A model generated the notes under the pieces. That model saw nothing but the letters and a program-made list of their open reading frames with translations, ran no database searches and was not told the origin of the DNA. A DNA stretch of 64,000 nt, taken from positions 29,796 through 93,795 of IMG/VR virus record IMGVR_UViG_3300045988_024527, one strand, 5' to 3'. A program made the position numbers and the translations under genes. Shown in pieces: positions 2,733 to 62,394 of this stretch. How positions within the stretch are numbered: position 1 is the stretch's first letter; each line of letters starts with the position of its first letter. Origin of the DNA: a virus (Duplodnaviria > Heunggongvirae > Uroviricota > Caudoviricetes).

Positions 2733-3730
<998 letters not shown>

Positions 3731-6123: not shown

Positions 6124-6657
6124 TCAACTTAGTTTTGCAAACTCTCCGTGGAGTTTAATAGCAGCTTCACAGTAAGCTTTATAGGCTTCTTCAGGTGTGT
6201 CATGGTGACCTAAAAACATCTTCTTACCTTTATAACTTATCTGTGCGACCCACTTACCGGACTTCTTCTTAAGACTTACACCCTTGTACCCAGATTTATT
6301 GGTGACTGGTTTACCTTTATTCCAAGCACTTTGAAAATCATCTGCTTCCCTTAAGTTTACAATCCTGTTGTCAAGCGAGTCTCCGTTGATATGGTCAATG
6401 ATACCTTTTGGCATCTTGCCATACACGTAAAGCCATGCGAGTCTGTGTGCTTTATGTGCTTTCTTGTCAAAATAGATACTAATCTGTTTATGACCACTTG
6501 AATCAGTCTGGATATTACCTGCCACCTTTCCTGCATAATTACTGTTAAAAACACTAACAGCTCTTGATTTACCTTCTCTACGAAGCCAAGTAAAGACCCC
6601 TGTTTCGGGGTCATAGTGCAGCAGCTCCTTTAAACGTTTTTGTAAAATTAAATCCAT
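6124..6657 (-). CDS. HNH homing endonuclease with AP2 DNA-binding domain
   Basis: YDPETGVFTW N-terminus, HNH core AHRLAWLY..IDHINGDSLDNRIVNLRE, AP2-like GYKGVS..KWVAQI; paralogs at 16217 and 29784. Confidence 0.8.
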   Translation of the reverse strand: MDLILQKRLKELLHYDPETGVFTWLRREGKSRAVSVFNSNYAGKVAGNIQTDSSGHKQISIYFDKKAHKAHRLAWLYVYGKMPKGIIDHINGDSLDNRIVNLREADDFQSAWNKGKPVTNKSGYKGVSLKKKSGKWVAQISYKGKKMFLGHHDTPEEAYKAYCEAAIKLHGEFAKLS

Positions 6658-15228: not shown

Positions 15229-16275
15229 ATGGAGAAGTACACATTAACAAAACTTCCCGATTCAGTTACACATGTCTTTATTGACTCTGACAGTATTGCC
15301 TATAAAGGTGCTTGTGTAGTTGAGAAAGCAAAATATAAATACGTCAATAAACTCACAGCAGAAGAATCTGAGCCATTTGATAATGCGAAAGATGCTGCAA
15401 GATGGTTAGCAGACCAGAGAATCCTTGTGGAAGAGCTTGGCCTGACATTTGATGAAGATGAATGGGAAAGACAGACTTGGAAAGAAGCGAAGAGTGAAAA
15501 AGAAGCTATCATGGCTACTCAACAGGTGCTTCAGGAATGGCTTAAGGTTGTTGGTAAAGAGAGAACTTGGGTAGGTTACTTAACAGAGAAAGGTGTGCAT
15601 AAACACAAAGACATTAAAGGTCTTGAGCACCAATATCAAGGTAACCGCAAAGATGCTGTCACACCAACACACTTAGTTGCTTGTCGTGAGTATCTTCTGT
15701 CAAGACCAGAGTTCAAATTAATTCTTGATGGATTTGAAGCTGACTCTATCGTTATTGCTAAAGCTGAAAAGATGGGAAAAAAGGCTGCCTTAATGAGTAT
15801 TGATAAAGACCTTCGCCAAGCTGAAGGGACTTACTGTATTGATATGACCTATGAAAAGTCGCCTTTGATTTTCATTGCTGATAACAATGTTGGTGAAATT
15901 TGGGATTGTCCAATAAAATCGACACCAAAAGCTAAGAAGACAGTTGGGGTAGGTTTTAAATTTCTTTGTTACCAAGCTGTGGCTGGTGATAATGCGGATA
16001 ATTATTTTGGTTTAAAGGGTGTTGGTAAGGTTACTATAATGAAAGCCCTTGAAGGTAAAACCACCTACAAAGAGTGTCTTGATGCAATTTATGAACTTTA
16101 TGCTAAGAAAGAGTCATACACTTATGTCTCGTGGGATGGTCAAACAATTACCAGAACACCTTTAGAGTTAATGCAGCAACACTTTTTCTTAGCTTATCAG
16201 GAAAGAAACAAGAAAGATGATTTCACTTTTGATAAGTATGGATGGACACCAAATGTTAACCCAACAAACTCTTAA
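15229..16275 (+). CDS. 5'-3' exonuclease / flap endonuclease
   Basis: N-terminal VFIDSDSIAYKG nuclease motif and H3TH-like AGDNADNYFGLKGVGKVT. Confidence 0.7.
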   Translation: MEKYTLTKLPDSVTHVFIDSDSIAYKGACVVEKAKYKYVNKLTAEESEPFDNAKDAARWLADQRILVEELGLTFDEDEWERQTWKEAKSEKEAIMATQQVLQEWLKVVGKERTWVGYLTEKGVHKHKDIKGLEHQYQGNRKDAVTPTHLVACREYLLSRPEFKLILDGFEADSIVIAKAEKMGKKAALMSIDKDLRQAEGTYCIDMTYEKSPLIFIADNNVGEIWDCPIKSTPKAKKTVGVGFKFLCYQAVAGDNADNYFGLKGVGKVTIMKALEGKTTYKECLDAIYELYAKKESYTYVSWDGQTITRTPLELMQQHFFLAYQERNKKDDFTFDKYGWTPNVNPTNS

Positions 16276-16744
16276 AGAATACCTACACTATGACCCCGAA
16301 ACAGGGGTCTTTACTTGGATTAAGAAGTCTGCTAGACACACAAAAATTGGCTCTGTTGCAGGTACAAACTTAAGAGGGTACACCAGAATTTATTTGTTTG
16401 GTAAGGGTTATTATGCACATACTCTAGCTGTTCTGTATATGGATGGATACCTACCTGAGTGTGTTGACCATAAAAATCATGTAACACTAGACAATCGATG
16501 GGTAAACCTTAGGGCATGTACATTATCAGAGAACCAATGCAATAGGTTGCTCAATAAGAACAATAAATCAGGTGTTAAAGGTGTGTACTACAAAAAACAG
16601 TATGGTAAGTGGTCTACACAGATAACTTTTAAGAAGAAAGTTTACTTCTTCGGAAACTATGACACTATTGATGAAGCAGCAGAGGTTGTAAATAGGGAAC
16701 GCCAACGTTTACACAAAGAGTTTGCTAATAAAGGTGATGAATGA
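16217..16744 (+). CDS. HNH homing endonuclease with AP2 domain
   Basis: YDPETGVFTW, HNH YAHTLAVLY..VDHKNH..NRWVNLR, AP2-like GVKGVYY..KWSTQI. Confidence 0.8.
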   Translation: MISLLISMDGHQMLTQQTLKEYLHYDPETGVFTWIKKSARHTKIGSVAGTNLRGYTRIYLFGKGYYAHTLAVLYMDGYLPECVDHKNHVTLDNRWVNLRACTLSENQCNRLLNKNNKSGVKGVYYKKQYGKWSTQITFKKKVYFFGNYDTIDEAAEVVNRERQRLHKEFANKGDE

Positions 16745-26271: not shown

Positions 26272-26663
26272 TTAAGTTGAGCCAAAAACAGTTAGAGTGG
26301 ATTAAGGATTACACCTCAGAGTGTGGCTCTTGTGAAAAGAATCACGTAAGGTACTCAACATTCCACACGGTCTTCACATTGTACATCAGCGACAACGTTC
26401 TAAGTGATTCTGTAGAAGATGGTGTAACATTACCGAATGAGCTACTTGATAAATTAGCTGTAGTCACTGGAACTTGGTCTGAAGAAGACGGTCATGAACT
26501 ATCTAACGATGTTGTCTTCTACAGTCTTGAAAACATTATGAATCCAGAGTACATTATGCTAATGACTTGTGCACAAGACTGTGTGCCATTACAAAACTTC
26601 ATTAAAGAGCACTGTGAAGAGTTTATTACTAAACAGGTTCCCTGTCAGGTGGTGTTTGAATGA
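26268..26663 (+). CDS. hypothetical protein
   Basis: 131 aa ORF. Confidence 0.45.
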   Translation: MIKLSQKQLEWIKDYTSECGSCEKNHVRYSTFHTVFTLYISDNVLSDSVEDGVTLPNELLDKLAVVTGTWSEEDGHELSNDVVFYSLENIMNPEYIMLMTCAQDCVPLQNFIKEHCEEFITKQVPCQVVFE

Positions 26664-26722
26664 GTAAAACAATTCGAAGAAAAGGTTTAAAGAGCGTTTA
26701 TATGTATTGGTGAGGTAACTAG

Positions 26723-27208
26723 ATGAATTACATGGAGATTAGACCATTTGACACAGCTAATGGTGAAGGGGTTCGTGTAAGCCTCTTCGTAGCTGGCTGT
26801 AAACATCACTGTGAAGGCTGCTTTAACAGGGAGTCTTGGAAGTTTAATGCTGGTAAAGAGTTTACTTATGCAAACCTCTACGGCATCATTAAGTTAATGG
26901 ATGATAAGGCCATTAGTGGGTTGTCAATACTTGGTGGAGAGCCTCTGGATGACAGAAACATTCAAGAGGTCACCAACATATGCAAACGTATTAAAACTGT
27001 TTACCCAGAAAAATCTATATGGCTTTGGACAGGTTTTCAGTTACACGAAAAAATCCACCTAGATGTGATGAAATATGTTGACGTGGTGATTGATGGTAAG
27101 TATGATTCTTCTAAACCAACGAACAAACCATATCGTGGTTCAGACAACCAAAACTTGTGGAGAAAAGAATATGGGTGGCAAGGCGACTGTCAGTGGAGAG
27201 CAGAGTAG
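26723..27208 (+). CDS. nrdG: anaerobic RNR activating enzyme (radical SAM)
   Basis: CKHHCEGC radical-SAM cysteine motif, about 160 aa, downstream of nrdD. Confidence 0.85.
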   Translation: MNYMEIRPFDTANGEGVRVSLFVAGCKHHCEGCFNRESWKFNAGKEFTYANLYGIIKLMDDKAISGLSILGGEPLDDRNIQEVTNICKRIKTVYPEKSIWLWTGFQLHEKIHLDVMKYVDVVIDGKYDSSKPTNKPYRGSDNQNLWRKEYGWQGDCQWRAE

Positions 27209-27449
27209 CTACTCCGGTAAGTGGACTTATAATATTAACTCACTTGATGAGTGGATGGTAAAGACCCATGAGAAGTTTGGGAAAAGTGGGTTAGTAGCTC
27301 TAGCAGAGGTTGTTAAACGTGTTACTTTCCACGTTGATTCAGAAAGCGCATTTAATGATGGACAGACATTTTTCACTGACGTAGCATACGGAGATGTTCA
27401 AGTTGGTATTGAAAAAGAAGAACTAGACCAGTTCTGTATTAAACTTTAA
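27090..27449 (+). CDS. hypothetical protein (start probably internal)
   Basis: ORF overlapping nrdG 3' end. Confidence 0.35.
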   Translation: MMVSMILLNQRTNHIVVQTTKTCGEKNMGGKATVSGEQSSYSGKWTYNINSLDEWMVKTHEKFGKSGLVALAEVVKRVTFHVDSESAFNDGQTFFTDVAYGDVQVGIEKEELDQFCIKL

Positions 27450-27464
27450 TGAGAGAGACTAAAA

Positions 27465-27722
27465 ATGGGAATTTTAGGTAATATGAAAGCTGGCTTCTTG
27501 AAGCCACTGGCAAAAGCAGCAGCAATCATTGCTATGACTGGAAAGCAGGTTGGTGTCGATGCTTCAGCAGTTGCACAAGTTCTTGCAAGCCAAATTGAAC
27601 AGCAGCCTTACATCTACGTAGGACGTGGAAAAGGTGGTAAAAAACAAGCACATCGACCAACTGGTGCAGCAGCAATTAAACGTGCAGCTAAGAAAGCTCG
27701 TAACCGTAAACGCAACAAGTAA
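27465..27722 (+). CDS. hypothetical protein
   Basis: 85 aa, basic C-terminus. Confidence 0.4.
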   Translation: MGILGNMKAGFLKPLAKAAAIIAMTGKQVGVDASAVAQVLASQIEQQPYIYVGRGKGGKKQAHRPTGAAAIKRAAKKARNRKRNK

Positions 27723-27733
27723 GGATAACCAAA

Positions 27734-28045
27734 ATGGAAAAGATTTATAACACTCGTAAAATTCAGATTTCTATTCTGTGTCAGTTTATGGCTGATAAGC
27801 ACAATTCACATTATTGTGGCACAGGTTTCCTTACTCTTGGCGGCGGTTACATTAGCTTCAAAGAGGCTGTAAAGATGTACAATGAGCACCCTGAAGATGA
27901 TAAAGAGCTGAAGCAGCTTAAACTTTCTTATGATAAGAAACGTAAGAAAATAATCTGCTTGAACAACCTTATCAAGCCAACTGAAAAGGTCTATGATGCA
28001 ATTGGTGAAGAAGGTTTCTTCAAAGTATTGAAATTAGTTCAGTAA
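27734..28045 (+). CDS. hypothetical protein
   Basis: 103 aa ORF. Confidence 0.4.
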   Translation: MEKIYNTRKIQISILCQFMADKHNSHYCGTGFLTLGGGYISFKEAVKMYNEHPEDDKELKQLKLSYDKKRKKIICLNNLIKPTEKVYDAIGEEGFFKVLKLVQ

Positions 28046-28058
28046 GAGTCTATGATTA

Positions 28059-28084
28059 GGGAACTGTAAAGGTTCCCTTTTTAT
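28059..28084 (+). terminator. intrinsic terminator
   Basis: GGGAAC-TGTAAAG-GTTCCC + TTTTT. Confidence 0.65.
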
Positions 28085-28096
28085 TTTGGAGATAAT

Positions 28097-28612
28097 ATGT
28101 ACCTGTCAAACCTGAAACGTTCGGCTGCAATGTCAGTGTTAAGGCTCAGCTTTGAGGAACGTCAAGAGTTCATTGACTCCCACCAATATGACCCTTCCAA
28201 CTCCAATCACATGATTCTCTGGAATCGTGAGAGTACTCGTGAAAGAGCACTATTCCGCTATTACCCACATTACACCATAGATAACCTGTATGAATGTTTT
28301 GTTGTGAAGAACACCATTACAGTACTCAATAAGCTTTGCAGATACACAGGTAACCAGTCCTTCACATTAGGCCACCACAAGCCTGTTACAAAAGGTGGTG
28401 AACATCACTGTGCAAACTGGTTTATCCAGACTAAAGCTGATAATCAGAAGCAAGGAGATAGACTTTTAAGCACCTCTAAGATGACCTATGAAGAGCAAGA
28501 GAAATATATCAAAAACAATATGCCAGATGTGCTTGACAACAGCTATACAGATTTGGCAATATCTCTCCTGTTGAAGTTCGAGACAGTTTATAGGGCAACT
28601 TACAATGGCTAA
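28097..28612 (+). CDS. HNH endonuclease
   Basis: GHHKPVTKGGEHHCANWFIQTKADN HNH-like motif. Confidence 0.55.
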   Translation: MYLSNLKRSAAMSVLRLSFEERQEFIDSHQYDPSNSNHMILWNRESTRERALFRYYPHYTIDNLYECFVVKNTITVLNKLCRYTGNQSFTLGHHKPVTKGGEHHCANWFIQTKADNQKQGDRLLSTSKMTYEEQEKYIKNNMPDVLDNSYTDLAISLLLKFETVYRATYNG

Positions 28613-28883
28613 AGCAGATTGGGAAATAAAAGACCTAATAAGTGATGCTGGAAATGGTTGTGAGATGTATATGATTCGTGGCCATATACCAGACCCATTA
28701 GCTCTTGAGATGATTGACCGTCACACAAACGGATTCTACAAAGAACTAGGTGAACCAAATGTTGAACGCACTTGGACAAAACCAGTACCAGATAGCACAG
28801 GCAACTGTTCAGTAATCTATCACATTGTGAATCCACAAAAATGCAAAACAGCTATGGCTGTGACATTCGTAACTTTTGATTGA
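28605..28883 (+). CDS. hypothetical protein
   Basis: 92 aa ORF. Confidence 0.35.
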   Translation: MAKADWEIKDLISDAGNGCEMYMIRGHIPDPLALEMIDRHTNGFYKELGEPNVERTWTKPVPDSTGNCSVIYHIVNPQKCKTAMAVTFVTFD

Positions 28884-29775
28884 GAGTAAAACTATGAAAA
28901 CATCTATCCGTGTTATAATTCATTCACCGACAAAAGGGTCTCATGAAGAAGAGTTTAACCTCATCCAGTTCCCTTCTGGTGAGATTGGTGGACACTTTTC
29001 ACAAGAGCTTGTTGACTTTACTGCTCACGCAGCATCATCCATCAACAATGTGATTATGATTGTAAAAGGTTATGATAAAGACACATTGTTTGCTGTGGCA
29101 CTTGCTAAAGAAGCAATTGATGATTTAGTTCCTCATGAATATGCCTTAAAGACTGTCATTTTTTACTACTTACCAAATGCACGATATGACCGTCACATGT
29201 TTAAAGGTGATGCAGCAGCTTTGAAGGTTTTTGCTAAACAGGTTAATGCAATGGGGTTTGGTGCAGTCTGTGCAGTTGACCCTCACAGTTATGTACCAGA
29301 CAACCTATTTAACTGCTTCCAAAGCATTCCTCAAAAGGAAGTCGCAGTTCACTATGCGAATGACCCTCTGGTTGATTACTTAGTAGCCCCAGATGCAGGT
29401 GCTTCTAAGAAGATTGCAGAGACTGCTAAAGAGGTGGATAAACCATACATCACAATGTCTAAAGTACGTAACCTTAAGACTGGTGAAATTACTGGTATGC
29501 GAATCCTTGATGATGTTGATTTGACCGATAAAACTGTTATGATTCTCGACGATATCTGTGATGGTGGTCGAACATTCATAGAAGCAGCTAAACATCTTCG
29601 TGAAGCAGGTGCAAAACGTGTGGAACTCTATGTAACACATGGTATCTTCTCTAAAGGTGTTGAAAACCTTCTTGACAATGGTATTGACCACATTTACACT
29701 ACAAACTCTTTAGGGGAAGCTAAAGACCGTGGCTTAACACATTATGGTCAAGTTACTGTAGCAAACCTTGATTAG
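28876..29775 (+). CDS. ribose-phosphate pyrophosphokinase family protein (PRPP synthetase-like; possible ADPR-PP synthetase)
   Basis: PRPP-binding motif MILDDICDGGRT, VAPDAGASKK. Confidence 0.75.
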   Translation: MIESKTMKTSIRVIIHSPTKGSHEEEFNLIQFPSGEIGGHFSQELVDFTAHAASSINNVIMIVKGYDKDTLFAVALAKEAIDDLVPHEYALKTVIFYYLPNARYDRHMFKGDAAALKVFAKQVNAMGFGAVCAVDPHSYVPDNLFNCFQSIPQKEVAVHYANDPLVDYLVAPDAGASKKIAETAKEVDKPYITMSKVRNLKTGEITGMRILDDVDLTDKTVMILDDICDGGRTFIEAAKHLREAGAKRVELYVTHGIFSKGVENLLDNGIDHIYTTNSLGEAKDRGLTHYGQVTVANLD

Positions 29776-29783
29776 GTATTAAA

Positions 29784-30275
29784 ATGGATAAGGGTTACTT
29801 CGAAAAATACCTAATATACGAACCGGAGACAGGTTTACTAATTTGGAAAGTAACCCTTTGCAATACCGCTATTGCTGGTAATGTTGCTGGCACAAGGTCT
29901 AAGAAGGGTTATATCCAAGTCCAGATAAATAAGAAGAGGTACTATGCACATAATATTGCATGGATTATGTCTGGAGGTGAGATACCAAGTGGATATGAGA
30001 TAGACCACATAGACCTTGATAAATCTAATAATAAGTTGGAGAATTTAAGACTTAGCACAAAATCACAAAATCAGAGGAATAGGGGTATATACAAGAATAA
30101 TAAAACTGGTGTGAAGGGTGTAAGTTTTTGTAAACAAACAGGTCTTTACAAAGCAAGAGTCATGCTTTACCATAAAGAATACTTTTGTGGAAGATTTAAA
30201 ACGGTAGAAGAAGCAAAAGAAGCTGTAATTAAAAAGCGAATAGAACTTCATGGTGAGTTTGCAAGACATAACTAA
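29784..30275 (+). CDS. HNH homing endonuclease with AP2 domain
   Basis: YEPETGLLIW, YAHNIAWIM..IDHIDLDKSNNKLENLR, GVKGVSF AP2-like. Confidence 0.8.
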   Translation: MDKGYFEKYLIYEPETGLLIWKVTLCNTAIAGNVAGTRSKKGYIQVQINKKRYYAHNIAWIMSGGEIPSGYEIDHIDLDKSNNKLENLRLSTKSQNQRNRGIYKNNKTGVKGVSFCKQTGLYKARVMLYHKEYFCGRFKTVEEAKEAVIKKRIELHGEFARHN

Positions 30276-30293
30276 GAGAGAGAGAGATAAAAT

Positions 30294-32075
30294 ATGAGTA
30301 AGTCACTTTACGCAGTACCAGCAGGTCTTAATGCAGATGCTTACAAGGCATCACATATATATCAGTATCCAGATGCTACGCAATATCTTATGTTGAACCT
30401 GACACCACGTAGTGACAAATGGTTTAACAGCCCCTTAGCAATTGATGGTGTAGTTGCTTTTGGTATTCAACGTTTTGTTAAAGATTACTTGATAGACCAC
30501 TGGAACGCCACTTTCTTTGAACGTGACAAAAAAGAAGCCATTGACGAAATCTTAGAAGTCATGAATGGTGTTCTGGGTAAAGATGCTATCGGTCGAGAGC
30601 ATTGGGAAGCACTTCACGACTTAGGTTATCTACCAGTTGAAGTATACGCTGTAGAAGAAGGCACAGTCGTCCCTATGCGTGTCCCAATGATTGTCTTCCA
30701 GAACACTGTTTCAGGTTTCCATTGGGTAGCAGGTTATCTGGAAGATGCTTTCTCTGCTGAGATTTGGAAGGCTTGCACTATTGCAACTATTGCATTGCAT
30801 TACAAACGTATCTGTAAGAAGTGGGCTGACCTTACTTGTGACAACGACTTGCATTTACCTTATCAGTGCCATGACTTTGCTATGCGTGGTATGTCCGGCT
30901 TTACTGATGACGCATTTAACGCTGTAGGCCACTTAACCAGCTTTAAAGGGACTGATAGCTTCCCTGCTGTATATACAGCTAAACGAATCTATGGACAGTC
31001 CTACCCAATCTCTGATATTGGTAGCTCTGTACCAGCCACTGAGCACTCTGTAATGTGTGCAAACATTGCTTGGGAAGGTGGTAATGAGTTGATTGAAGAA
31101 GAAAGACGCTTTAAAGGTGAGTTACAAACCTTCCGTCGTTTCTTAACAGAAACTTATCCAACTGGTATTGCAAGTGTTGTTTCAGATACTTATAACTTCT
31201 GGAGAACTGTGTCAGAAATCTTACCAGCACTCCGTAAAGAAATTATGGAACGTGATGGCAAACTGGTAATTCGCCCTGACTCTGGAGACCCTGTACATAT
31301 TGTCACAGGTTATAAAGCAATCCACTTAGAGTGTGCTAAGAAGGCTTATTACGAGCACCTAAGCAAGCTAGAGGCAAGTGACACAATGTTGAATGCTATT
31401 CTGAACATGAAGCTTGAAAACATCAACTATGGTATTGCTGGATGGCTACTGTCAGAAGGCTACGAAATGGTTGTTGACAGAGAAGACTTTGAAGTTGCTG
31501 ATACAGTGCTGTTGAAAAATGCTTATATGGTTGGTTCTGCAAACGTTGTAACACGTCCTGTAGCGGAGATTGATGGAGCTATCAAGACACTGTATAACAT
31601 CTTTGGGGGAACTATTAACTCTAAAGGGTTTAAGGTACTGGATGAGCATATCGGCCTTATCTATGGTGACTCTATCACGCTGGAACGTGCAAACGAAATC
31701 CTGAAGCGTCTGTATGAAATGGGTTTTGCAAGCTCTAACGTAGTGTTTGGCGTAGGCTCTTACACTTACCAGTACATGACTCGTGACACCTTTGCATTTG
31801 CTGTCAAAGCAACTCTTGCAAGCATTGGTGGTAAAGAGATTATGCTTGCAAAAGACCCTAAAACAGATAGTGGTGTTAAGAAATCTGCCTTTGGTGGTGT
31901 AGCACCTATGTGGGATGGTGACAAGCTGAAAGCTATAGATGGCTATGGATTCCAGAGTTTTGCAGATGTACTTGACCACCCAGCTTGTGCCTTACGTTTA
32001 GTCTTTAGTGACTCTGAGCAGTTCGGTTACACAACTCTTGGGGATATTCGAAATAATATTGACAAGCAGCTTTAA
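30294..32075 (+). CDS. nicotinamide phosphoribosyltransferase family protein (NadV/Nampt-like; possible Namat)
   Basis: HDFAMRGMSG and GHLTSFKGTDS resemble Nampt active-site regions; 593 aa. Confidence 0.7.
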   Translation: MSKSLYAVPAGLNADAYKASHIYQYPDATQYLMLNLTPRSDKWFNSPLAIDGVVAFGIQRFVKDYLIDHWNATFFERDKKEAIDEILEVMNGVLGKDAIGREHWEALHDLGYLPVEVYAVEEGTVVPMRVPMIVFQNTVSGFHWVAGYLEDAFSAEIWKACTIATIALHYKRICKKWADLTCDNDLHLPYQCHDFAMRGMSGFTDDAFNAVGHLTSFKGTDSFPAVYTAKRIYGQSYPISDIGSSVPATEHSVMCANIAWEGGNELIEEERRFKGELQTFRRFLTETYPTGIASVVSDTYNFWRTVSEILPALRKEIMERDGKLVIRPDSGDPVHIVTGYKAIHLECAKKAYYEHLSKLEASDTMLNAILNMKLENINYGIAGWLLSEGYEMVVDREDFEVADTVLLKNAYMVGSANVVTRPVAEIDGAIKTLYNIFGGTINSKGFKVLDEHIGLIYGDSITLERANEILKRLYEMGFASSNVVFGVGSYTYQYMTRDTFAFAVKATLASIGGKEIMLAKDPKTDSGVKKSAFGGVAPMWDGDKLKAIDGYGFQSFADVLDHPACALRLVFSDSEQFGYTTLGDIRNNIDKQL

Positions 32076-32089
32076 AAGTATATGATAAG

Positions 32090-32111
32090 AGGCTCCTACA
32101 GGAGCCTTTTT
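32090..32111 (+). terminator. intrinsic terminator
   Basis: GAGGCTCC-TACA-GGAGCC + TTTTT. Confidence 0.7.
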
Positions 32112-32128
32112 AATTTCTGGAGAAAACT

Positions 32129-57403: not shown

Positions 57404-57480
57404 CTCTGTTTAGCTCAGATTGGTAGAGCGTTCCGTTTGGGGCGGTAAGGCCGGAGGTTCAAGTCCTCCAACAGAGACCA
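57404..57480 (+). tRNA. tRNA-Pro (anticodon UGG), hand-folded
   Basis: acceptor CTCTGTT/AACAGAG, T-arm GGAGG-TTCAAGT-CCTCC, loop TTTGGGG, CCA encoded. Confidence 0.55.
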
Positions 57481-57487
57481 AATTAAT

Positions 57488-57565
57488 GTTCCAGTAGACA
57501 AAATGGTATAGTCACCACTCTTTCAAAGTGGATATCTGAGGGTTCAAATCCCTTCTGGAACGCCA
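57488..57565 (+). tRNA. tRNA-Glu (anticodon UUC), hand-folded
   Basis: acceptor GTTCCAG/CTGGAAC, anticodon stem CCACT/AGTGG loop CTTTCAA, CCA encoded. Confidence 0.55.
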
Positions 57566-57650
57566 GTTTTGACAGAAGACCGATTACAGCAAACAACTTT
57601 TACTTTTCGCGCATAGAAAACATAAAAAGCTTGGTCTGGTCATTAAGAAT

Positions 57651-57727
57651 CGCGGGTATAGAGAAAGGGCGTCTCACATGTCTCATTAGCATGGTAACGG
57701 TTGGTTCGACTCCAACACCCGCCTCCA
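57651..57727 (+). tRNA. tRNA-Met/Ile2 (anticodon CAU) with unpaired 1:72
   Basis: anticodon stem CATGT/GCATG loop CTCATTA, T-arm GTTGG-TTCGACT-CCAAC, C1-C72 mismatch. Confidence 0.45.
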
Positions 57728-57812
57728 AATTTACAGAAGACCGTTTACAGCAAAATTTAATGAAATTTTTAGCGGAAAAAATTGAAAGATACGGTCTGGT
57801 AATACTAAACAT

Positions 57813-57889
57813 GGTTAGGAAGCACATAAGGTATGTGCGGTCGCCTGTTAAGCGAATGGCACAGGGTTCGAGTCCCTGACTAACCGCCA
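57813..57889 (+). tRNA. tRNA-Asn (anticodon GUU)
   Basis: D-arm GCAC-ATAAGGTAT-GTGC, loop CTGTTAA, T-arm CAGGG-TTCGAGT-CCCTG, CCA. Confidence 0.6.
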
Positions 57890-57898
57890 AATTTAAAT

Positions 57899-57986
57899 GT
57901 GTCGTTATCCCGTAGATGGTAGCGGTGGGGACTGTAAATCCCTTGTCATTGAGACTCGGTAGGTTCGACTCCTACACGGCACACCA
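57899..57986 (+). tRNA. tRNA-Tyr (anticodon GUA), class II with long variable arm
   Basis: 88 nt; anticodon loop CTGTAAA; T-arm GTAGG-TTCGACT-CCTAC; CCA. Confidence 0.55.
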
Positions 57987-58008
57987 ATACTTAGCGAGAT
58001 ACTTAGTT

Positions 58009-58437
58009 ATGAGAGATGAAGTATACAAATCACAACTTGGTATGAGTTTAGGAACTGCACAAAACAGACTAGTAAAAGATTTGCTATTCGATTTGATATG
58101 TAAAACAAATCAAAATATATGTTTTCAGTGCGGAAAAGAAATGACTAGGGATGATTTCTCCATCGAGCATAAGATTCCGTGGAGACATAGTGAAAATGCA
58201 AAAGAGCTTTTCTTTTCATTAGATAATATTTCTTATAGTCATCTTAAATGTAATATGAAAGCAGCAAGACCAGCACAGGTATATGATAGGAAGCCTAAAC
58301 CAATTAAACACGGCACTGCACACAGCTACTCTAAAGGTTGTAGATGCGAGGAGTGTAGGCTGGCTAAGAATGCTGAGGGCAGGAAGCACTATAACCCAGA
58401 AAGGCGTAGGAAGAAGTATTTAAGAAATGGTACATAG
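58009..58437 (+). CDS. HNH endonuclease
   Basis: CFQCGKEM..FSIEHKIPW..HLKCN HNH motif; start set after tRNA-Tyr (track ORF 57916 overlaps tRNA). Confidence 0.6.
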   Translation: MRDEVYKSQLGMSLGTAQNRLVKDLLFDLICKTNQNICFQCGKEMTRDDFSIEHKIPWRHSENAKELFFSLDNISYSHLKCNMKAARPAQVYDRKPKPIKHGTAHSYSKGCRCEECRLAKNAEGRKHYNPERRRKKYLRNGT

Positions 58438-58443
58438 GGTTTT

Positions 58444-58519
58444 GGGGTGTTAGTTTAGACGGGTAAAATACTGGATTGTCTCTCCTGAGCCGCGAGTTCG
58501 ATTCTCGCACACCTCGCCA
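58444..58519 (+). tRNA. tRNA, anticodon unresolved (non-canonical anticodon arm; GUC/Asp possible)
   Basis: clear acceptor GGGGTGT/ACACCTC, T-arm GCGAG-TTCGATT-CTCGC and CCA; anticodon stem not clean. Confidence 0.4.
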
Positions 58520-58946
58520 ATTTTGAGAGGGCTATTTAGCCCCTCCCTTAAAGGGTTCTTACGAGTATCCTTTAAAGGAGCAGAAGACCAAATACAGCAA
58601 GTTACTTAAAATTTCAAGCCAATTCAATTTTGAAAAATTTAAAACTTGGTCTGGCTCAACAAATTTACAGAAGACCGTTTACAGCAAAACTTAAACAATC
58701 TATTTCTCCGGTAAAGAAAAGGCGAAGGTTCGATTCCTTCACTCGGCAGATGTCGAGTTGGTGTAATGGTAGCACTTAAGATGATAAACAACGGTCTGGT
58801 AATTATCTTTGTAGATAAGTTATTAAGCTTCCCTGTGAGTATGCGACCACAAAGGTGAAGGGTAAATTCTAGATTTAAACCCAAAAAGGCACATCGCTAC
58901 AGACCTTAAGCAAGTCTGGGTAGCTTATCTACAAAGATAATTTAAT

Positions 58947-59022
58947 GGAAGTGTAGCAGAATGGTGATGCGGCAGACTTTTAATCTGACAGGCGATGGGT
59001 TCGAATCCCTCCACTTCTACCA
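58947..59022 (+). tRNA. tRNA-Lys (anticodon UUU)
   Basis: acceptor GGAAGTG/CACTTCT, anticodon loop CTTTTAA, T-loop TTCGAAT, CCA. Confidence 0.5.
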
Positions 59023-59026
59023 ATAT

Positions 59027-59103
59027 GGTTCAGTCGCAGATAAGGTAATGCAAGGGTCTCATAAGCCCTATGAATGTGGGTTCGATTCCCATCTGAACCT
59101 CCA
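59027..59103 (+). tRNA. tRNA-Met (anticodon CAU)
   Basis: acceptor GGTTCAG/CTGAACC, anticodon stem AGGGT/GCCCT loop CTCATAA, T-arm GTGGG-TTCGATT-CCCAT, CCA. Confidence 0.55.
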
Positions 59104-59111
59104 ATTTATAG

Positions 59112-59606
59112 GTGATACTTATGATTTGTGCTAACAAAGATTGCGGAAATGAAGCCGTTAAAGGTGGAAAATTTTGCTCACGCTCTTGTTCTGCAAAAGT
59201 GAACAACAAGAAACACCCAAAGAGAAGTCAGGAAGGCTCTTGCCATTCATGCGGAAAGGTAACGCCAAAAGCGAGAAAATACTGTGACGAATGTATTGCA
59301 GGTGGAGTCATGAAAAAACATAAGACCCATCATGAAAAAAGCAAAGCCAAATCACTGCACGTTAAAAAGTCTCGTGACAGACTGAAGAAGGCTTTAGTTG
59401 ATTACAAGGGTGGTTGTTGTTCAATTTGTGGTTACAATAGGTGCATAAAGGCTCTAGAGTTTCACCACTTAGACCCTAAGACAAAAGACTTCACAGTAAG
59501 TAAAAAACACTACTCACTGGCTACAATGCAGTCTGAAGTTGATAAGTGTGTCTTGCTTTGTGCAAATTGTCACAGAGAAGTACACGAAGGGGTAACAATG
59601 CTGTGA
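59112..59606 (+). CDS. HNH endonuclease
   Basis: EFHHLDP..CVLLCANCHREVH HNH motif plus N-terminal Cys-rich region. Confidence 0.65.
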   Translation: MILMICANKDCGNEAVKGGKFCSRSCSAKVNNKKHPKRSQEGSCHSCGKVTPKARKYCDECIAGGVMKKHKTHHEKSKAKSLHVKKSRDRLKKALVDYKGGCCSICGYNRCIKALEFHHLDPKTKDFTVSKKHYSLATMQSEVDKCVLLCANCHREVHEGVTML

Positions 59607-59675
59607 AAGCACATATGGATGTGCGTTCGGCTGATAACCGAAAGGCAGAAGGTTCGAATCCTTCTCACAGTACCA
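59600..59675 (+). tRNA. tRNA-Ile (anticodon GAU)
   Basis: D-arm GCAC-ATATGGAT-GTGC, anticodon stem TTCGG/CCGAA loop CTGATAA, T-arm GAAGG-TTCGAAT-CCTTC, CCA; 5' end overlaps HNH stop. Confidence 0.6.
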
Positions 59676-59690
59676 ATTTCAAAAAAGTTG

Positions 59691-59719
59691 TTGACATTGA
59701 GATGTGACTACTTTATAGT
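59691..59719 (+). promoter_or_regulatory. consensus sigma70 promoter
   Basis: TTGACA-17 bp-TATAGT. Confidence 0.55.
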
Positions 59720-59923
59720 AACCTTAGTTTTCGTTGCGTAGCGTCTATTTTGCAAATTTAAAATAAATGCAAACGACAATGTTTTTCTGGCAGTAGCTTG
59801 ATAGGCTAAACACCAGTGAGGTCTTCCAATCCCTCATCAAAGAATTTGGCGTACTCGCCCACGGTATGATTAATAAGGTGGGCATCTTTAAGGGCTTTCT
59901 AAGAGAGTCTTTAAAGATAATTA

Positions 59924-60005
59924 CGGGGCGTATCTCAGCTGTCTTCTAAACAGCCGTTAACCGAGTAAGTGGAGTATGCGGGTTCGAGTCCTGCCGCCTC
60001 GACCA
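59924..60005 (+). tRNA. tRNA-like gene, non-canonical (possible anticodon UCU/Arg; no clear D-arm)
   Basis: acceptor CGGGGCG/CGCCTCG, T-arm GCGGG-TTCGAGT-CCTGC, CCA; stem-loop GCTGT-CTTCTAA-ACAGC. Confidence 0.4.
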
Positions 60006-60060
60006 ATTTTGGAGAAATCATGAAAACTTGTATTAGGTGCAAACTTAGCAAGGATGAATA

Positions 60061-60175
60061 GGTAAGGTGTTGAATGTTAAAAAAAAAAAATCCCATTATT
60101 TGACGAGATAGAAAACAACTCAGTAACAAATGGTGACTCTATCGAGCTAATAAAAAAAGTACAAACTCAATCCGC
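60061..60175 (+). repeat. direct repeat copy 1 (start of plasmid unit; repeated at 63889-64000)
   Basis: GGTAAGGTGTTGAATGTTAAAAA..CCCATTATTTGACGAGATAGAAAACAACTC..GCTC near-identical except poly-A length and one substitution. Confidence 0.85.
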
Positions 60176-60995
60176 TCACTTAATACTGAGTGATATTCCT
60201 TACGGAATAGGAGCTGATGATTGGGATGTACTTCATAAAAACTCGAACAATGCCTATCTAGGTTCAAGCCCCGCACAAAAATCAGCTGGTGCCATTTTCA
60301 AAAAAAGAGGAAAGCCTATAAATGGCTGGTCTGATGCAGATAGAAAAATACCTTTAGAGTATCAACAATGGTGTGAAGAGTGGGCGAGGGAATGGTATCG
60401 TGCCTTAAAACCAGGAGCTAGTGCAATCATTTTCGCTGGTAGGAGATTTTCACACAGATGTATTTGCGCAATGGAAAATGCTGGATTTAACCTCAGAGAT
60501 ATAATCGCATGGATGCGAACAAAAGCTCCTCATCGTGCACAAAGGCTAAGCTGCGTATATGAAAGGCGTGGGGACCAATATAACAAAGAAAAATGGGACG
60601 GCTGGAGGGTTGGAAACTTACAGCCAACATTTGAGCCAATACTATGGTTTTCAAAACCCTACAAAATAGGAGGGACTATTGCTGATAACGTTCTATTGCA
60701 TGGTGTTGGAGCATATAACCAAGATGCGTTCACAGCAAGAAATGGAAAACCTGAAAATGTAATACATGCTGGCTTTGAGAGAAATGAAGGTGGATTACAT
60801 CCAACGCAGAAGCCTGTTTCGCTGATGAAAGCGCTAATAGAACTAACTACTCAAGAAGGACAGCTAGTAATAGATCCATTTAGTGGTAGCGGTTCAACTC
60901 TTGTGGCAGCAAAAGAGCTGGGCAGAAACTATATAGGCTTCGAGTTTAACCCAGCATATGTAGAAATAAGCAAAAAAAGATTAGAAGATAAATAA
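60074..60995 (+). CDS. Type II DNA methyltransferase (amino-MTase, motif IV before motif I); frameshifted in A12 tract
   Basis: motif IV SDIPYG, motif I VIDPFSGSGST; ATG at 60074 is out of frame with the body (frame opens at 60081) because of 12-A run at 60079-60090; in-frame in second copy. Confidence 0.75.
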
Positions 60996-61922
60996 CTACT
61001 TAAGTGACAGTATATTATTATCTGTCACTTTATTTATTTGGTCTATCCTACTGTCTATTTTATGCATTTTTATCAACGCACTGACAGCCTCATCCTTGGT
61101 CATCATTAGCATCCTTGTACGTTCAGAAGATAGAAATTCTATAGCCATTTTTTTTGAAACGGCAATACCCTCAGTTGTGGCTGATTTTTCATCACTCCAA
61201 AGCTCAGCTATCCTACTATCATAGCTTAACATTGTTCTATTTATATTCACCCAATATTGCACACTATCTTTGCTAGGGTTGAGTAAAGATACAGATTTAA
61301 ATATTTCACCAAGAAGGTTTTTACTATCTTCAGTTGTTGCTATAGCTGAATATCTTATGAGAACGGCCAGGTGTGTATATGTAAAAACACAAACATTTCG
61401 CAATATAGCTTGCTGATATATTTGACTTGATTTTGTTGGCAACTGATATATTGGACATACAACCATTGCAAAGTCTTTGGTATTTCTCCAACCATCCATA
61501 GCCTGAACTTTAAAGTCTTTTTGATTTTTTGCAGTTCTACTCAAGCGAAATACTTTGGCATCTGCCACAAATGAATAGCTATCGCAAACAACCTCAACAT
61601 CAGCCGCATCTGCCCTTTCAGTCAAAACAATACTATTTAACCCTAAATATTTAAAACATTCTGATATCAGTGCATCTGTATACTTTGAGTACAGTTTTTC
61701 TTCACTTGAATCATGATCATATGACTCAGGTATTGCTGTGCATAACCTAAGGTGGTCTAGTAATGCTTGACTTCCAGATTTCTTAACCTCATCTATTATT
61801 TCATTTTCAACTCTGCTTGAGTCGTTAACAAAGTGACCACTTAGTTTTACTATTTCATCAATCCAGTAACGCCTTCTTATTATTGCATCTTCAGTAATGA
61901 ATTTAAAATTACATAAGTCCAT
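60996..61922 (-). CDS. putative Type II restriction endonuclease
   Basis: 308 aa ORF convergent and abutting the MTase; possible PD-(D/E)xK-like CD..VADAK; no direct motif proof. Confidence 0.45.
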   Translation of the reverse strand: MDLCNFKFITEDAIIRRRYWIDEIVKLSGHFVNDSSRVENEIIDEVKKSGSQALLDHLRLCTAIPESYDHDSSEEKLYSKYTDALISECFKYLGLNSIVLTERADAADVEVVCDSYSFVADAKVFRLSRTAKNQKDFKVQAMDGWRNTKDFAMVVCPIYQLPTKSSQIYQQAILRNVCVFTYTHLAVLIRYSAIATTEDSKNLLGEIFKSVSLLNPSKDSVQYWVNINRTMLSYDSRIAELWSDEKSATTEGIAVSKKMAIEFLSSERTRMLMMTKDEAVSALIKMHKIDSRIDQINKVTDNNILSLK

Positions 61923-62394
61923 TTTTAATACCCGATATAATTAATCAATAACTCAGTATAATCTCGCGATCATAACAGATTTTTTCATCTGCCGAATAAT
62001 AGAACTATCAGTTTATATGGCTAGAGATTCGCTTGTATTTACCATAACATCCGTTGCGTGCACCGCCTGAGAGGCTCTCAGGGCGTTTCTGACGGGAAAC
62101 CGGTAAAACAGGCAACAAACTACCCGAAAACCCGCCAGAAACGCGCAGGCTCTGTTTTTACGGCATGCATGAGTATGCGCGCAAGTGCATAGCGCGGAAA
62201 TTCACGCCATTCAGCCGGGGTAAGTCCTGTTTCCGTCGTTCTTCCCACCCGAAAACGGTGAACGGGGACGCAATTTATTGCGTGGCCGTGAGGCGTTGCC
62301 GGCACAGCCGGAAAACCCGTTTTCAGCACGTTCAGGAAGGGGGCCGATGTACGAATGGTTCAGGGAACGGATCTGAGGTAATCCGGTAGTTACT

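What the first reader, a model, noticed from the sequence alone, without database searches (positions are those of the whole stretch)
28876..32075. PRPP-synthetase-like plus Nampt-like pair: candidate NAD+ reconstitution (NARP1-type) anti-defence module
A ribose-phosphate pyrophosphokinase-family gene (DDICDGGRT) and a nicotinamide phosphoribosyltransferase-family gene sit side by side, separated only by an HNH-AP2 endonuclease. Phage Adps (Prs-like) and Namat (Nampt-like) enzymes have been described as rebuilding NAD+ from ADP-ribose and nicotinamide to counter NAD-depleting defences; canonical Prs/NadV salvage is the alternative.
Basis: partly seen in the sequence, partly recalled or inferred. 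Interest (0 to 1): 0.6.

Follow-up and report, generated by a model that had tools for sequence, protein, structure and literature searches.

The report
Known NARP1 NAD-rebuilding phage operon

Summary
Three co-oriented ORFs lie at 28876/28894-29775 (Prs-like), 29784-30275 (HNH_3 + weak AP2) and 30294-32075 (Nampt-like). The window is a Felixounavirus, the genus of phage Bas63 in which NARP1 was discovered. The Nampt-like protein is 97% identical over all 593 residues to Bas63 gp80 (Namat). The Prs-like protein is 78% identical to Bas63 gp79 (Adps), in the same syntenic slot. All published Namat determinants are present: the catalytic core, His251, the SCH motif GSYTYQYMTRD and the SCL residues K42/W43. 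True Nampts lack the SCH aromatics. The Adps catalytic lysine is present, and the protein fails every NCBIfam Prs equivalog cut-off. So this is NARP1, not Prs/NadV salvage, and it is already known.

The additions are minor. The HNH gene is a mobile free-standing homing endonuclease, present in 61 of about 258 related genomes. It is intact and under constraint, and it is linked to a ~100-nt haplotype at the Namat 5' end that crosses genus boundaries. The Adps N-terminal half exists as two old alleles, and this window carries the one not tested experimentally. Namat carries an ~87-residue folded insertion with no structural relative. Separately, the window's last ~3.9 kb is a ColE1-type R-M plasmid joined abruptly to the phage sequence.

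The parts
28894..29775 (+). adps: ADP-ribose pyrophosphokinase (Prs-like), 293 aa. The mechanical ORF extends to a TTG at 28876.
   Evidence: It is 78% identical to Bas63 gp79 and 41% to Harbringer Adps. BLASTP gives 5e-28 to the biochemically characterised SpbetaL1 Adps against 2.5e-14 to E. coli Prs.
29461..29463 (+). Adps catalytic lysine K190, equivalent to SpbetaL1 Adps K162 and B. subtilis Prs K197.
   Evidence: Alignment A2 and residue mapping. K162A abolishes NAD+ production (10.1101/2024.02.11.579819).
29548..29574 (+). Phosphoribosyl-binding loop DDICDGGRT. E. coli Prs has DDMIDTGGT and SpbetaL1 Adps has DDLSSFGGT.
28700..29450 (+). Mosaic divergence island: the 3' end of the upstream 92-aa gene plus about 550 nt of the adps 5' end. 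It is one of two old allele classes in the genus.
   Evidence: It shows 63-81% nucleotide identity to Bas63 against 91-98% in the flanks. The genus distribution is bimodal. dS is 2.2 and dN/dS is 0.10.
29784..30275 (+). Free-standing HNH (HNH_3 + AP2-like) homing endonuclease, 163 aa. The whole inserted spacer is 29776-30293.
   Evidence: It is present in 61 phage records against about 258 that carry the flanking genes, and absent from Bas63. It is intact in 7 of 7 loci with dN/dS 0.07-0.17, and is more conserved across genera than its flanks.
30294..32075 (+). namat: nicotinamide ADP-ribose transferase (Nampt-like), 593 aa.
   Evidence: It is 97% identical (578/593, no gaps) to Bas63 gp80. 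Its best PDB matches are the SpbetaL1 Namat structures 9w5w/9w5x, by sequence at 7.6e-129 and by fold at TM 0.95.
30298..30395 (+). HNH-linked haplotype tract at the namat 5' end: probable co-conversion or target-immunity footprint, and the predicted homing site in HNH-less alleles.
   Evidence: 17 sites at namat nt 5-102 separate HNH+ from HNH- loci, and 13 of 14 loci are concordant. The tract is 90-91% conserved in Moogle and SUSP1, where the rest of namat is about 75%.
30417..30422 (+). Selectivity-clamp loop (SCL) residues K42 and W43.
   Evidence: They are identical to Bas63. The rule 'Lys at position 3, next residue stacks' comes from PMC12774641.
31044..31046 (+). His251, in the conserved ATEHS motif that holds the catalytic, phosphorylatable histidine of Nampt-family enzymes.
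   Evidence: The catalytic histidine is described as conserved between Namat and Nampt in PMC12774641; assigning it to this motif is my inference.
31272..31274 (+). R327, equivalent to SpbetaL1 Namat R306, which is essential for activity.
   Evidence: R306G and R306A abolish activity.
31314..31574 (+). Insertion of about 87 residues (341-427) forming an ordered alpha/beta subdomain. It is absent from SpbetaL1 and FADO Namat and from all solved Nampts.
31755..31787 (+). Selectivity-clamp helix (SCH) signature GSYTYQYMTRD, with adenine-stacking aromatics Y490 and Y494.
   Evidence: It fits GS-X-phi-X-phi-X-phi-TRD (PMC12774641; mapping). The contrasts are HdNadV GAQTYQRNTRD and Xcc GGALLQKVDRD, and 44RR NadV GGGLLQMVNRD.
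28028..28078 (+). Promoter-like site followed by a terminator-like hairpin, the upstream boundary of the predicted transcription unit.
   Evidence: Both are conserved in Bas63. These are consensus matches only.
32059..32110 (+). Promoter-like site plus a 10-bp terminator-like hairpin immediately after the namat stop, the downstream boundary.
   Evidence: Both are conserved in Bas63.

Best explanation
This locus is a NARP1 (NAD+ reconstitution pathway 1) anti-defence operon of a Felixounavirus. When a host defence such as SIR2-HerA, DSR, type I Thoeris or SEFIR cleaves NAD+ into ADP-ribose and nicotinamide, Adps (28894-29775) uses ATP to pyrophosphorylate ADPR to ADPR-PP. Namat (30294-32075) then joins ADPR-PP to nicotinamide to regenerate NAD+, which lets the phage replicate. 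Shown here: orthology to the genetically validated Bas63 genes, and conservation of every published catalytic and specificity residue. Inferred: the enzymatic activities of these particular proteins. The gene between them is a selfish free-standing HNH homing endonuclease. It most likely cuts HNH-less alleles in the first ~100 nt of namat and is copied in by recombinational repair, dragging a short resistant namat 5' haplotype with it. It is a passenger, not a pathway component. All three genes probably remain co-transcribed, because no terminator-like site lies between them.
For: Identity and synteny. The window is a Felixounavirus. Bas63 (JohannRWettstein, MZ501086) is a Felixounavirus whose genes 79-80 lie between the same neighbours, NrdG upstream and rIIA downstream. 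Namat is 97% identical to gp80 over 593 residues without gaps, and Adps is 78% identical to gp79.

Published function of the orthologues. Deleting Bas63 genes 79-80 sensitises the phage to SIR2-HerA. ADPR-PP (m/z 720.010) appears only with wild-type phage plus the defence system. Counter-defence persists in a host lacking pncC and nadR.

Namat determinants. D15, Y17, F195, R198, D221, A248, H251, R327, D329, G458 and D459 are conserved. So are SCH G488-S489-Y490...Y494-T496-R497-D498 and SCL K42/W43, and all are identical to Bas63. All 30 diverse relatives carry GS[YF]TYQ..TRD. True Nampts lack the aromatics. The best solved relatives, by sequence and by fold, are the Namat structures 9w5w/9w5x.

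Adps. The catalytic residue K190 is present, as are the FPxGE, RxDR and DPHS motifs. The protein scores 90-103 bits against NCBIfam Prs models whose cut-offs are about 296-297 bits, but 325 bits against phage family phrog_619. It is closer to SpbetaL1 Adps than to E. coli Prs.

Constraint. dN/dS is 0.04-0.13 across both genes.

HNH mobility.
Against: No enzymology or genetics exists for these exact proteins. The first 150 Adps residues are only 66% identical to Bas63 gp79, so the tested allele is not this one. Bas63 Adps itself was never purified; the biochemistry comes from SpbetaL1 Adps, which is about 30-35% identical. Sequence alone separates Adps from Prs only modestly against some Adps proteins: FADO gives 1.3e-17 and E. 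coli Prs gives 2.5e-14. I did not build a full Prs/Adps tree. Namat keeps residual NMN-forming activity with PRPP in vitro. The 518-nt HNH insertion replaces a conserved spacer hairpin and could change the Adps:Namat expression ratio. The transcription signals are consensus matches only.
Confidence: 0.9

Rival explanations
1. Canonical salvage. The Prs-like enzyme makes PRPP from ribose-5-phosphate, the Nampt-like enzyme makes NMN from PRPP and nicotinamide, and host NadR or PncC finishes NAD+. On this reading the pair is an auxiliary metabolic module, not a dedicated counter-defence.
For: Pfam, NCBIfam and most GenBank annotations name the proteins this way. TIGR01251 is just passed, at 118.8 bits against a 113-bit cut-off. 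Namat can form NMN from PRPP in vitro.
Against: The orthologous Bas63 operon works in a host lacking pncC and nadR and produces ADPR-PP in vivo. SpbetaL1 Adps gave no product in the assay for Prs activity, and Namat uses only ADPR-PP when both donors are offered. The SCH/SCL clamp is intact. All NCBIfam Prs equivalog models are failed by about 200 bits or more. The phosphoribosyl loop deviates from DTGGT.
Confidence: 0.04
2. NARP2-type pathway. The Nampt-like enzyme is a true Nampt that works with a phage NMN adenylyltransferase, as in KVP40.
For: Homology to the Nampt family.
Against: NARP2-clade NadV of T4-like phages is only about 28% identical and has GGGLLQMVNRD in place of the SCH motif. 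An Adps gene sits next door, which defines the NARP1 clade. No Nmnat was noticed in the neighbourhood, but I did not scan the whole phage.
Confidence: 0.01
3. The operon is NARP1 by descent but functionally impaired in this phage, because the HNH insertion decouples or lowers namat expression, or because the divergent Adps N-domain allele is inactive.
For: The conserved spacer hairpin of HNH-less genomes is lost. The Adps N-terminal half is only 66% identical to the tested allele.
Against: All three ORFs are intact. dN/dS is 0.04-0.13. The HNH-bearing arrangement persists in 61 genomes of three genera, including Felix O1. The window-type Adps allele is the majority allele, in about 157 of 254 records. 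The scan found no terminator-like site between the three genes; its only + strand hit, inside the HNH ORF, is weak and has no T-run. The namat ribosome-binding site GAGAGAG is retained.
Confidence: 0.05

Closest known systems
NARP1 of Escherichia phage Bas63 / JohannRWettstein (gp79 Adps, gp80 Namat); Osterman et al., bioRxiv 10.1101/2024.02.11.579819
   Same: Same genus, same syntenic slot, same gene order and same flanking promoter/terminator-like signals. Namat is 97% identical and Adps 78% identical, and all mapped functional residues are identical.
   Different: Bas63 has a 45-nt hairpin-containing spacer instead of the 518-nt HNH cassette. It carries the other Adps N-terminal allele and the HNH-less namat 5' haplotype. 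It also has two extra small genes, 0072 and 0081, that the window lacks.
NARP1 of Bacillus phage SPbetaL1 (biochemistry; Namat crystal structures 9w5w/9w5x, PMC12774641)
   Same: Two-gene Adps-Namat unit, catalytic residues and SCH motif. The fold matches with TM 0.95.
   Different: Identity is only about 30-35% for Adps and 43-46% for Namat. SCL uses Arg40 directly, whereas here it is K42/W43. The SPbetaL1 enzyme lacks the 87-residue and 15-residue insertions. Its Adps loop is DDLSSFGGT against DDICDGGRT here.
Extended NARP1 operons: NARP1-AP with the Macro-domain phosphatase Adpp (10.64898/2026.01.28.702374) and NARP1 with the RyDEP glycosidase (10.64898/2026.05.28.727677)
   Same: An extra gene lies within the Adps-Namat locus.
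   Different: Here the extra gene is an HNH endonuclease with no Macro or RyR domain. Nothing suggests it feeds substrate to the pathway. This phage would therefore be predicted to be sensitive to aRES-type defence.
NARP2 (KVP40-type Nampt + Nmnat) and cellular Nampt/NadV
   Same: Nampt fold and catalytic core.
   Different: No Adps partner and no aromatic SCH clamp. Identity is about 23-34%.
Free-standing homing endonucleases of T4-like phages (Seg/Mob type; Edgell, Gibb and Belfort 2010, cited in PMC8300805; mechanism from my own knowledge)
   Same: An intergenic ORF between conserved genes, patchy distribution among close relatives, and a short linked flanking haplotype consistent with co-conversion and target immunity.
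   Different: The family is HNH_3 + AP2-like, not GIY-YIG. Cleavage has not been demonstrated.

Membership tests
NARP1 - Adps | Prs-family protein belonging to the phage Adps clade, not to cellular Prs | tested here: met
   It is 78% identical to Bas63 gp79 and scores 325 bits against phrog_619. It scores 42-103 bits against NCBIfam Prs equivalog and subfamily models whose cut-offs are about 296-536 bits. BLASTP gives 5e-28 to SpbetaL1 Adps and 2.5e-14 to E. coli Prs. No full tree was built.
NARP1 - Adps | Catalytic lysine (SpbetaL1 K162 / B. subtilis Prs K197) | tested here: met
   K190 aligns with SpbetaL1 K162.
NARP1 - Adps | A Namat homologue in the immediate vicinity (97% of the Adps clade, within 10 genes) | tested here: met
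   namat starts 518 nt downstream, with one gene in between.
NARP1 - Adps | Pyrophosphorylates ADPR to ADPR-PP and does not make PRPP | not testable with these tools
   This needs enzymology. The in vivo ADPR-PP signal is published for Bas63 only.
NARP1 - Namat | Nampt-like catalytic core (SpbetaL1 D13, Y15, F189, R192, D215, A242, catalytic His, R306, D308) | tested here: met
   The equivalents D15, Y17, F195, R198, D221, A248, H251, R327 and D329 are all present.
NARP1 - Namat | SCH signature GS-X-phi-X-phi-X-phi-TRD with aromatics at positions 3 and 7 | tested here: met
   GSYTYQYMTRD at residues 488-498. The aromatics are absent from HdNadV, Xcc Nampt and 44RR NadV.
NARP1 - Namat | SCL with Arg, Lys or Tyr at position 3 and a stacking residue | tested here: met
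   S40-D41-K42-W43, identical to Bas63.
NARP1 - Namat | Prefers ADPR-PP over PRPP and counters NAD+-depleting defence | not testable with these tools
   Published for SpbetaL1 in vitro and for the Bas63 operon in vivo.
Canonical class I PRPP synthetase (Prs) | Passes an equivalog-level Prs model and has the ribose-5-phosphate loop DxxDTxGT | tested here: not met
   The best equivalog model gives 103 bits against a 296-bit cut-off. The loop is DDICDGGRT against DDMIDTGGT in E. coli Prs.
Nampt / NadV (including the NARP2 type) | Non-aromatic SCH-equivalent (GGxLLQ / GAQTYQR) and no Adps partner; for NARP2, a phage Nmnat | tested here: not met
   The aromatic SCH motif is present and Adps is adjacent. 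Absence of Nmnat across the whole phage was not scanned.
Free-standing HNH homing endonuclease | Intact HNH nuclease domain | tested here: met
   PF13392 at 1.6e-19 and phrog_99 at 3.5e-69. The ORF is intact in 7 of 7 loci with dN/dS 0.07-0.17.
Free-standing HNH homing endonuclease | DNA-binding module (AP2) | tested here: inconclusive
   AP2 scores 20.8 bits against a 33.3-bit cut-off. Phage Mushroom's annotators also note AP2/ERF.
Free-standing HNH homing endonuclease | Sporadic presence at one fixed intergenic site among close relatives, with a linked flanking tract | tested here: met
   It is present in 61 of about 258 records, one copy each. 17 linked sites lie at namat nt 5-102, with 13 of 14 loci concordant and Fisher p = 0.005 on a non-random sample. 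The cassette is 90-91% conserved across genera against 72-83% for the flanks.
Free-standing HNH homing endonuclease | Site-specific cleavage of the endonuclease-lacking allele and super-Mendelian inheritance | not testable with these tools
   This needs cleavage mapping and co-infection crosses.

The most novel reading that the evidence does not exclude
The two deeply diverged Adps N-terminal alleles are 66% identical at the protein level with saturated dS, and they reassort freely within Felixounavirus. They may not be neutral mosaicism. They could be kept by balancing selection because they differ in function, for example in the range of ADPR derivatives accepted, in regulation, or in sensitivity to an unknown host countermeasure against NARP1. 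Only the Bas63-type allele has been tested. Related to this, the HNH cassette repeatedly rewrites residues 2-34 of Namat, which lie next to the nicotinamide-binding residues D15 and Y17 and upstream of the selectivity loop. In that case a selfish element would be shaping an anti-defence enzyme.
Probability: 0.1. Interest if true: 0.45.

Novelty: already known. Interest (0 to 1): 0.15.

Why it matters
It matters mainly as annotation. Roughly 258 Felix O1-like genomes, many of them candidate therapeutic or biocontrol phages, still label these genes 'ribose-phosphate pyrophosphokinase' and 'nicotinamide/nicotinate phosphoribosyltransferase'. They should be read as Adps and Namat, an anti-defence module that predicts escape from SIR2-, TIR- and SEFIR-type NAD+ depletion, and predicted sensitivity to aRES because there is no Adpp. 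The side observations give ready-made natural variants for structure-function work on NARP1: the HNH-linked namat haplotype, the two Adps alleles and the orphan Namat insertion subdomain. None of them changes the picture of how the system works.

Tried and rejected
1. I tested the upstream 171-aa HNH-like ORF (28097-28612, phrog_3500) as a possible NARP1 accessory gene. It is syntenic in Harbringer, but in phi92 and phAPEC8 its homologues sit beside a UvrD helicase and RNR genes, not NARP1. Rejected. The 92-aa ORF (28605-28883) has no detectable similarity to its positional counterpart in Harbringer.

2. I looked for Macro (Adpp) or RyR (RyDEP) accessory genes. No neighbouring ORF has such a Pfam hit.

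3. I tested whether the HNH gene is tied to a particular Adps allele. It is not; the two assort independently.

4. I tested for positive selection on the divergent Adps island. dN/dS is 0.10 with saturated dS, which points to old alleles plus recombination.

6. I asked whether the Harbringer HNH is the same element. It is not: 37% identity over the 60-residue core only.

7. I searched for the locus in RefSeq complete E. coli assemblies and found no match.

8. I considered whether the plasmid tail is a real insertion in the phage. It is unresolved. The plasmid part exceeds one unit length and the junction has no microhomology, which favours concatenation or a chimera.

9. My first accession guess for Bas63 (MZ501111) was Bas51. 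I found Bas63 at MZ501086 by bisecting the alphabetically ordered accessions.

10. I did not build a full Prs/Adps phylogeny, did not spend the remaining large-database searches on Adps, and did not scan the whole phage part for an Nmnat.


Full report
OBSERVATION. For the first gene, the start used in annotated homologues is the ATG at 28894 (293 aa). It lies 10 nt after the stop of the upstream gene and behind a GAGAG ribosome-binding site. The first protein matches Pribosyltran and Pribosyl_synth, phrog_619 and the TIGR01251 subfamily. The second matches HNH_3 (1.6e-19) plus a sub-threshold AP2 domain. The third matches NAPRTase and NAMPT_N, phrog_448 (8.8e-202) and PRK09198. The quoted motif DDICDGGRT is at nt 29548-29574.

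WHAT THE GENOME IS. The 3.2-kb region is 95-96% identical to many Felix O1-like myoviruses, and about 258-260 phage records carry it. The neighbours (NrdG upstream, rIIA downstream, GC about 39%) fit that group.

THE DECISIVE COMPARISON. NARP1 was discovered in BASEL phage Bas63 (JohannRWettstein). Deleting its genes 79-80 sensitised the phage to SIR2-HerA. ADPR-PP appeared only with wild-type phage plus the defence system. Counter-defence did not need host PncC or NadR (10.1101/2024.02.11.579819). Bas63 is MZ501086, a Felixounavirus, and its genes 79 and 80 occupy the same slot between the same neighbours. The window's Nampt-like protein is 97% identical to gp80 (578/593, no gaps). The Prs-like protein is 78% identical to gp79 (229/293, no gaps). 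These are orthologues of the founding example.

NAMAT VERSUS NAMPT. PMC12774641 defines what makes a Namat. It has a Nampt-like catalytic core plus an adenine-binding selectivity clamp. The clamp is made of a helix with the signature GS-X-phi-X-phi-X-phi-TRD, aromatic at positions 3 and 7, and a loop whose third residue is Arg, Lys or Tyr. I fetched SPbetaL1 and FADO, the biochemically and genetically tested Bacillus phages, and mapped every listed residue. The core is conserved: D15, Y17, F195, R198, D221, A248, H251, R327, D329, G458 and D459. The helix reads GSYTYQYMTRD (488-498) and the loop reads SDKW (K42/W43), exactly as in Bas63. Two positions differ from SPbetaL1 (S190 to A196, A362 to S460), and both are shared with Bas63. 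True Nampts lack the aromatics: H. ducreyi NadV reads GAQTYQRNTRD, Xanthomonas Nampt reads GGALLQKVDRD, and a T4-like phage NadV reads GGGLLQMVNRD. The best solved relatives are the Namat crystal structures 9w5w/9w5x. By sequence they give 7.6e-129, against 2.4e-105 for HdNadV and about 1e-41 for human NAMPT. By fold, an AF2 model (pLDDT 92.5) gives target-normalised TM 0.95. All 30 diverse relatives I aligned keep the motif, including chromosomal copies in Klebsiella, Cronobacter and Kosakonia.

ADPS VERSUS PRS. The catalytic lysine (SPbetaL1 K162, B. subtilis Prs K197) is K190 here. The FPxGE, RxDR and DPHS motifs are kept. The protein fails all NCBIfam Prs equivalog and subfamily models by about 200 bits or more, for example 103 bits against a 296-bit cut-off, and passes only the broad TIGR01251 model at 118.8 bits against 113. 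It scores 325 bits against the phage family phrog_619. BLASTP gives 5e-28 to SPbetaL1 Adps, 1.3e-17 to FADO Adps and 2.5e-14 to E. coli Prs, so the discrimination by sequence is real but modest. The phosphoribosyl loop (DDICDGGRT) differs both from E. coli Prs (DDMIDTGGT) and from SPbetaL1 Adps (DDLSSFGGT). Adjacency to Namat, true of 97% of the Adps clade, holds here. No Adps structure is in the PDB.

MECHANISM. The most likely mechanism has two steps. Adps pyrophosphorylates ADPR, released by NAD+-cleaving defences, to ADPR-PP using ATP. Namat condenses ADPR-PP with nicotinamide to give NAD+. Orthology and residue conservation are shown here. The activities themselves are inferred from Bas63 (in vivo) and SPbetaL1 (in vitro and structural). 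Both genes are under purifying selection, with dN/dS 0.04-0.13 against Bas63.

THE HNH GENE. It is absent from Bas63, whose 45-nt spacer holds a GGGGCT/AGCCCC hairpin (-11.5 kcal/mol) ahead of the namat ribosome-binding site. The cassette occurs in only 61 records, one copy each, always in this slot. It is scattered over Escherichia, Salmonella, Shigella and Citrobacter phages, including Felix O1 itself, and over three genera: Felixounavirus, Mooglevirus and Suspvirus. I compared seven HNH+ and seven HNH- loci. Seventeen sites at namat nt 5-102 (window 30298-30395) separate the two classes. All 7 HNH+ loci carry one haplotype and 6 of 7 HNH- loci carry the other. The exception, garuso, switches haplotype at about nt 35 and looks recombinant. 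Beyond nt 200 all Felixounavirus loci are about 94-97% identical to both references. In Moogle and SUSP1 the HNH gene and namat nt 1-110 are 90-91% identical to the window, while adps is 72-83% and the rest of namat about 75%. The HNH ORF is intact in 7 of 7 loci with dN/dS 0.07-0.17. This is the standard footprint of a free-standing homing endonuclease whose target lies in the 5' end of the HNH-less namat allele. I infer that; it has not been shown. Erwinia phage Harbringer (Kolesnikvirus) has a different HNH in the same slot, only 37% identical over the 60-residue core, so the Adps-Namat spacer is a recurrent landing site. Two paralogues of the window's HNH lie at 16271-16726 (+) and 6133-6621 (-). 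The scan found no terminator-like site between the three genes; its only + strand hit, inside the HNH ORF, is weak and has no T-run. Conserved promoter/terminator-like pairs at 28028-28078 and 32059-32110 bracket the unit in both the window and Bas63.

COMPARISON WITH WHAT IS KNOWN, AND NOVELTY. Every testable defining feature of NARP1 is met, and the defining features of canonical Prs and of Nampt/NARP2 are not. Known extended NARP1 operons add a Macro-domain phosphatase or a RyR-domain glycosidase. Neither is present here. The locus is therefore an already-known system in its original genus. The HNH passenger, the allele dimorphism and the insertion subdomain are modest natural-history additions. 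The NARP1 preprint has no occurrence of 'HNH' or 'homing', and the Namat structure paper has no occurrence of 'insertion'.

CONTEXT CAVEAT. The window is composite. Phage homology ends at about 60057, inside a small ORF that is cut after 13 codons. From 60058 to 64000 the sequence is 99.4-99.8% identical to a 3,824-bp ColE1-type E. coli plasmid (NZ_AP027826). That plasmid carries a HindIII-family restriction enzyme, a methyltransferase and RNAI. The plasmid part runs for more than one unit length, and the junction has no microhomology. This does not affect the finding.

VERDICT. Novelty is 'already known' and interest is low (0.15).

Noticed in passing
window 60058-64000 (junction at about 60057/60058): The window is composite. 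Felixounavirus sequence stops abruptly inside a small ORF (start 60020, cut after 13 codons), whereas Felix O1 continues with more tRNA genes. The rest is 99.4-99.8% identical to the 3,824-bp mobilizable ColE1-type E. coli plasmid p2017.17.01CC_4 (NZ_AP027826). It carries a HindIII-family restriction enzyme (60996-61922, - strand), an N6/N4 methyltransferase and RNAI (63712-63813). The plasmid part is longer than one unit: 60058-60177 repeats at 63885-64000. There is no microhomology at the junction. Concatenated records or a chimeric assembly seem likelier than a real cointegrate.
   Followed up: partly
window 60074-60995: In the first copy of its 5' end, the plasmid methyltransferase gene has an A12 homopolymer where the reference plasmid and the second copy (63885-64000) have A8. 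This shifts the frame, so an ORF is called only from 60471. It could be a sequencing error or a phase-variable tract.
   Followed up: partly
window 28700-29450: The Adps N-terminal half exists as two old allele classes in the genus, with about 157 and 97 records. Between the window and Bas63 it is 66% identical at the protein level, with saturated dS and dN/dS 0.10. The alleles assort independently of the HNH gene. Phage allfine is 100% identical here yet lacks the HNH gene.
   Followed up: yes
window 31314-31574 (Namat residues 341-427) and 31065-31109 (residues 258-272): Ounavirinae Namat carries a confidently folded alpha/beta insertion subdomain of about 87 residues, plus a 15-residue insertion. 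Both are absent from crystallised SPbetaL1 Namat and from all solved Nampts. The site is a length-variable hotspot (12-95 residues) across relatives. No sequence or fold relative was found.
   Followed up: yes
L008 (Erwinia phage Harbringer PP854833) 2930-3517: A different HNH endonuclease (195 aa, only 37% identical over the 60-residue core) occupies the same Adps-Namat spacer in a Kolesnikvirus. This spacer is therefore a recurrent homing-endonuclease landing site.
   Followed up: yes
L020 (Escherichia phage garuso MN850566) namat 5' end: This phage lacks the HNH gene but carries the HNH-linked namat haplotype from about nt 35 onward. It is either a recombinant or a lineage that lost the cassette.
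   Followed up: partly
window 16271-16726 (+) and 6133-6621 (-): Two paralogues of the HNH-AP2 endonuclease, 40% and 38% identical, lie elsewhere in the phage. One is next to a 348-aa ORF and the other next to a 909-aa ORF. The published comparison notes six homing-endonuclease copies in Felix O1.
   Followed up: partly
window 28097-28612: The 171-aa ORF two genes upstream of adps (phrog_3500) has an HNH-like motif, GHHKPVTKGGEHHCANWFIQTKADNQKQGD. It is 45% conserved in the same position in Harbringer. In phi92 ('predicted HNH endonuclease-like fold') and phAPEC8 it sits by a UvrD helicase and RNR genes instead, so it is not a NARP1 accessory gene.
   Followed up: yes
window about 26663-26722 and 32076-32128, versus L004: Bas63 has two small extra genes (bas63_0072, bas63_0081) that are absent from the window at these points. 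Further mosaic islands of 57-71% identity to Bas63 lie at 27200-27500 and 27800-28100.
   Followed up: no
P0068, P0072, P0087, P0104 (homologous-protein hits): Chromosomal 496-aa Namat-like proteins in Klebsiella michiganensis and K. huaxiensis, Cronobacter and Kosakonia, on contigs up to 6 Mb and one cluster with 1,229 members. They are 46-48% identical and carry the full Namat SCH motif (GSFTYQYNTRD). This is consistent with the bacterial NARP1 homologues reported in PMC12774641. I did not check their neighbourhoods.
   Followed up: partly
window 57404-60002: The phage tRNA cluster has nine tRNAs called by ARAGORN (Pro, Glu, Met, Asn, Tyr, Asp, Lys, Met, Ile). An extra weak tRNA-like element at 59924-60002 was found only by Rfam, at 31.2 bits against a gathering score of 29. 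It lies just before the phage/plasmid junction.
   Followed up: partly
L004 17638-17653 and the equivalent spacer in all HNH-less loci: A conserved GC-rich hairpin (GGGGCTTGAAAGCCCC, -11.5 kcal/mol, followed by ATTTTGAG) lies between adps and namat in HNH-less genomes and is replaced by the HNH cassette in HNH+ genomes. It may act as an attenuator or stabiliser that sets the Adps:Namat ratio.
   Followed up: partly
window 27734-28045: A 103-aa ORF with Pfam DUF7390 (2.6e-16). Its homologues are annotated 'HNH endonuclease' in phages allfine and wV8. It lies just upstream of the predicted NARP1 transcription unit.
   Followed up: no
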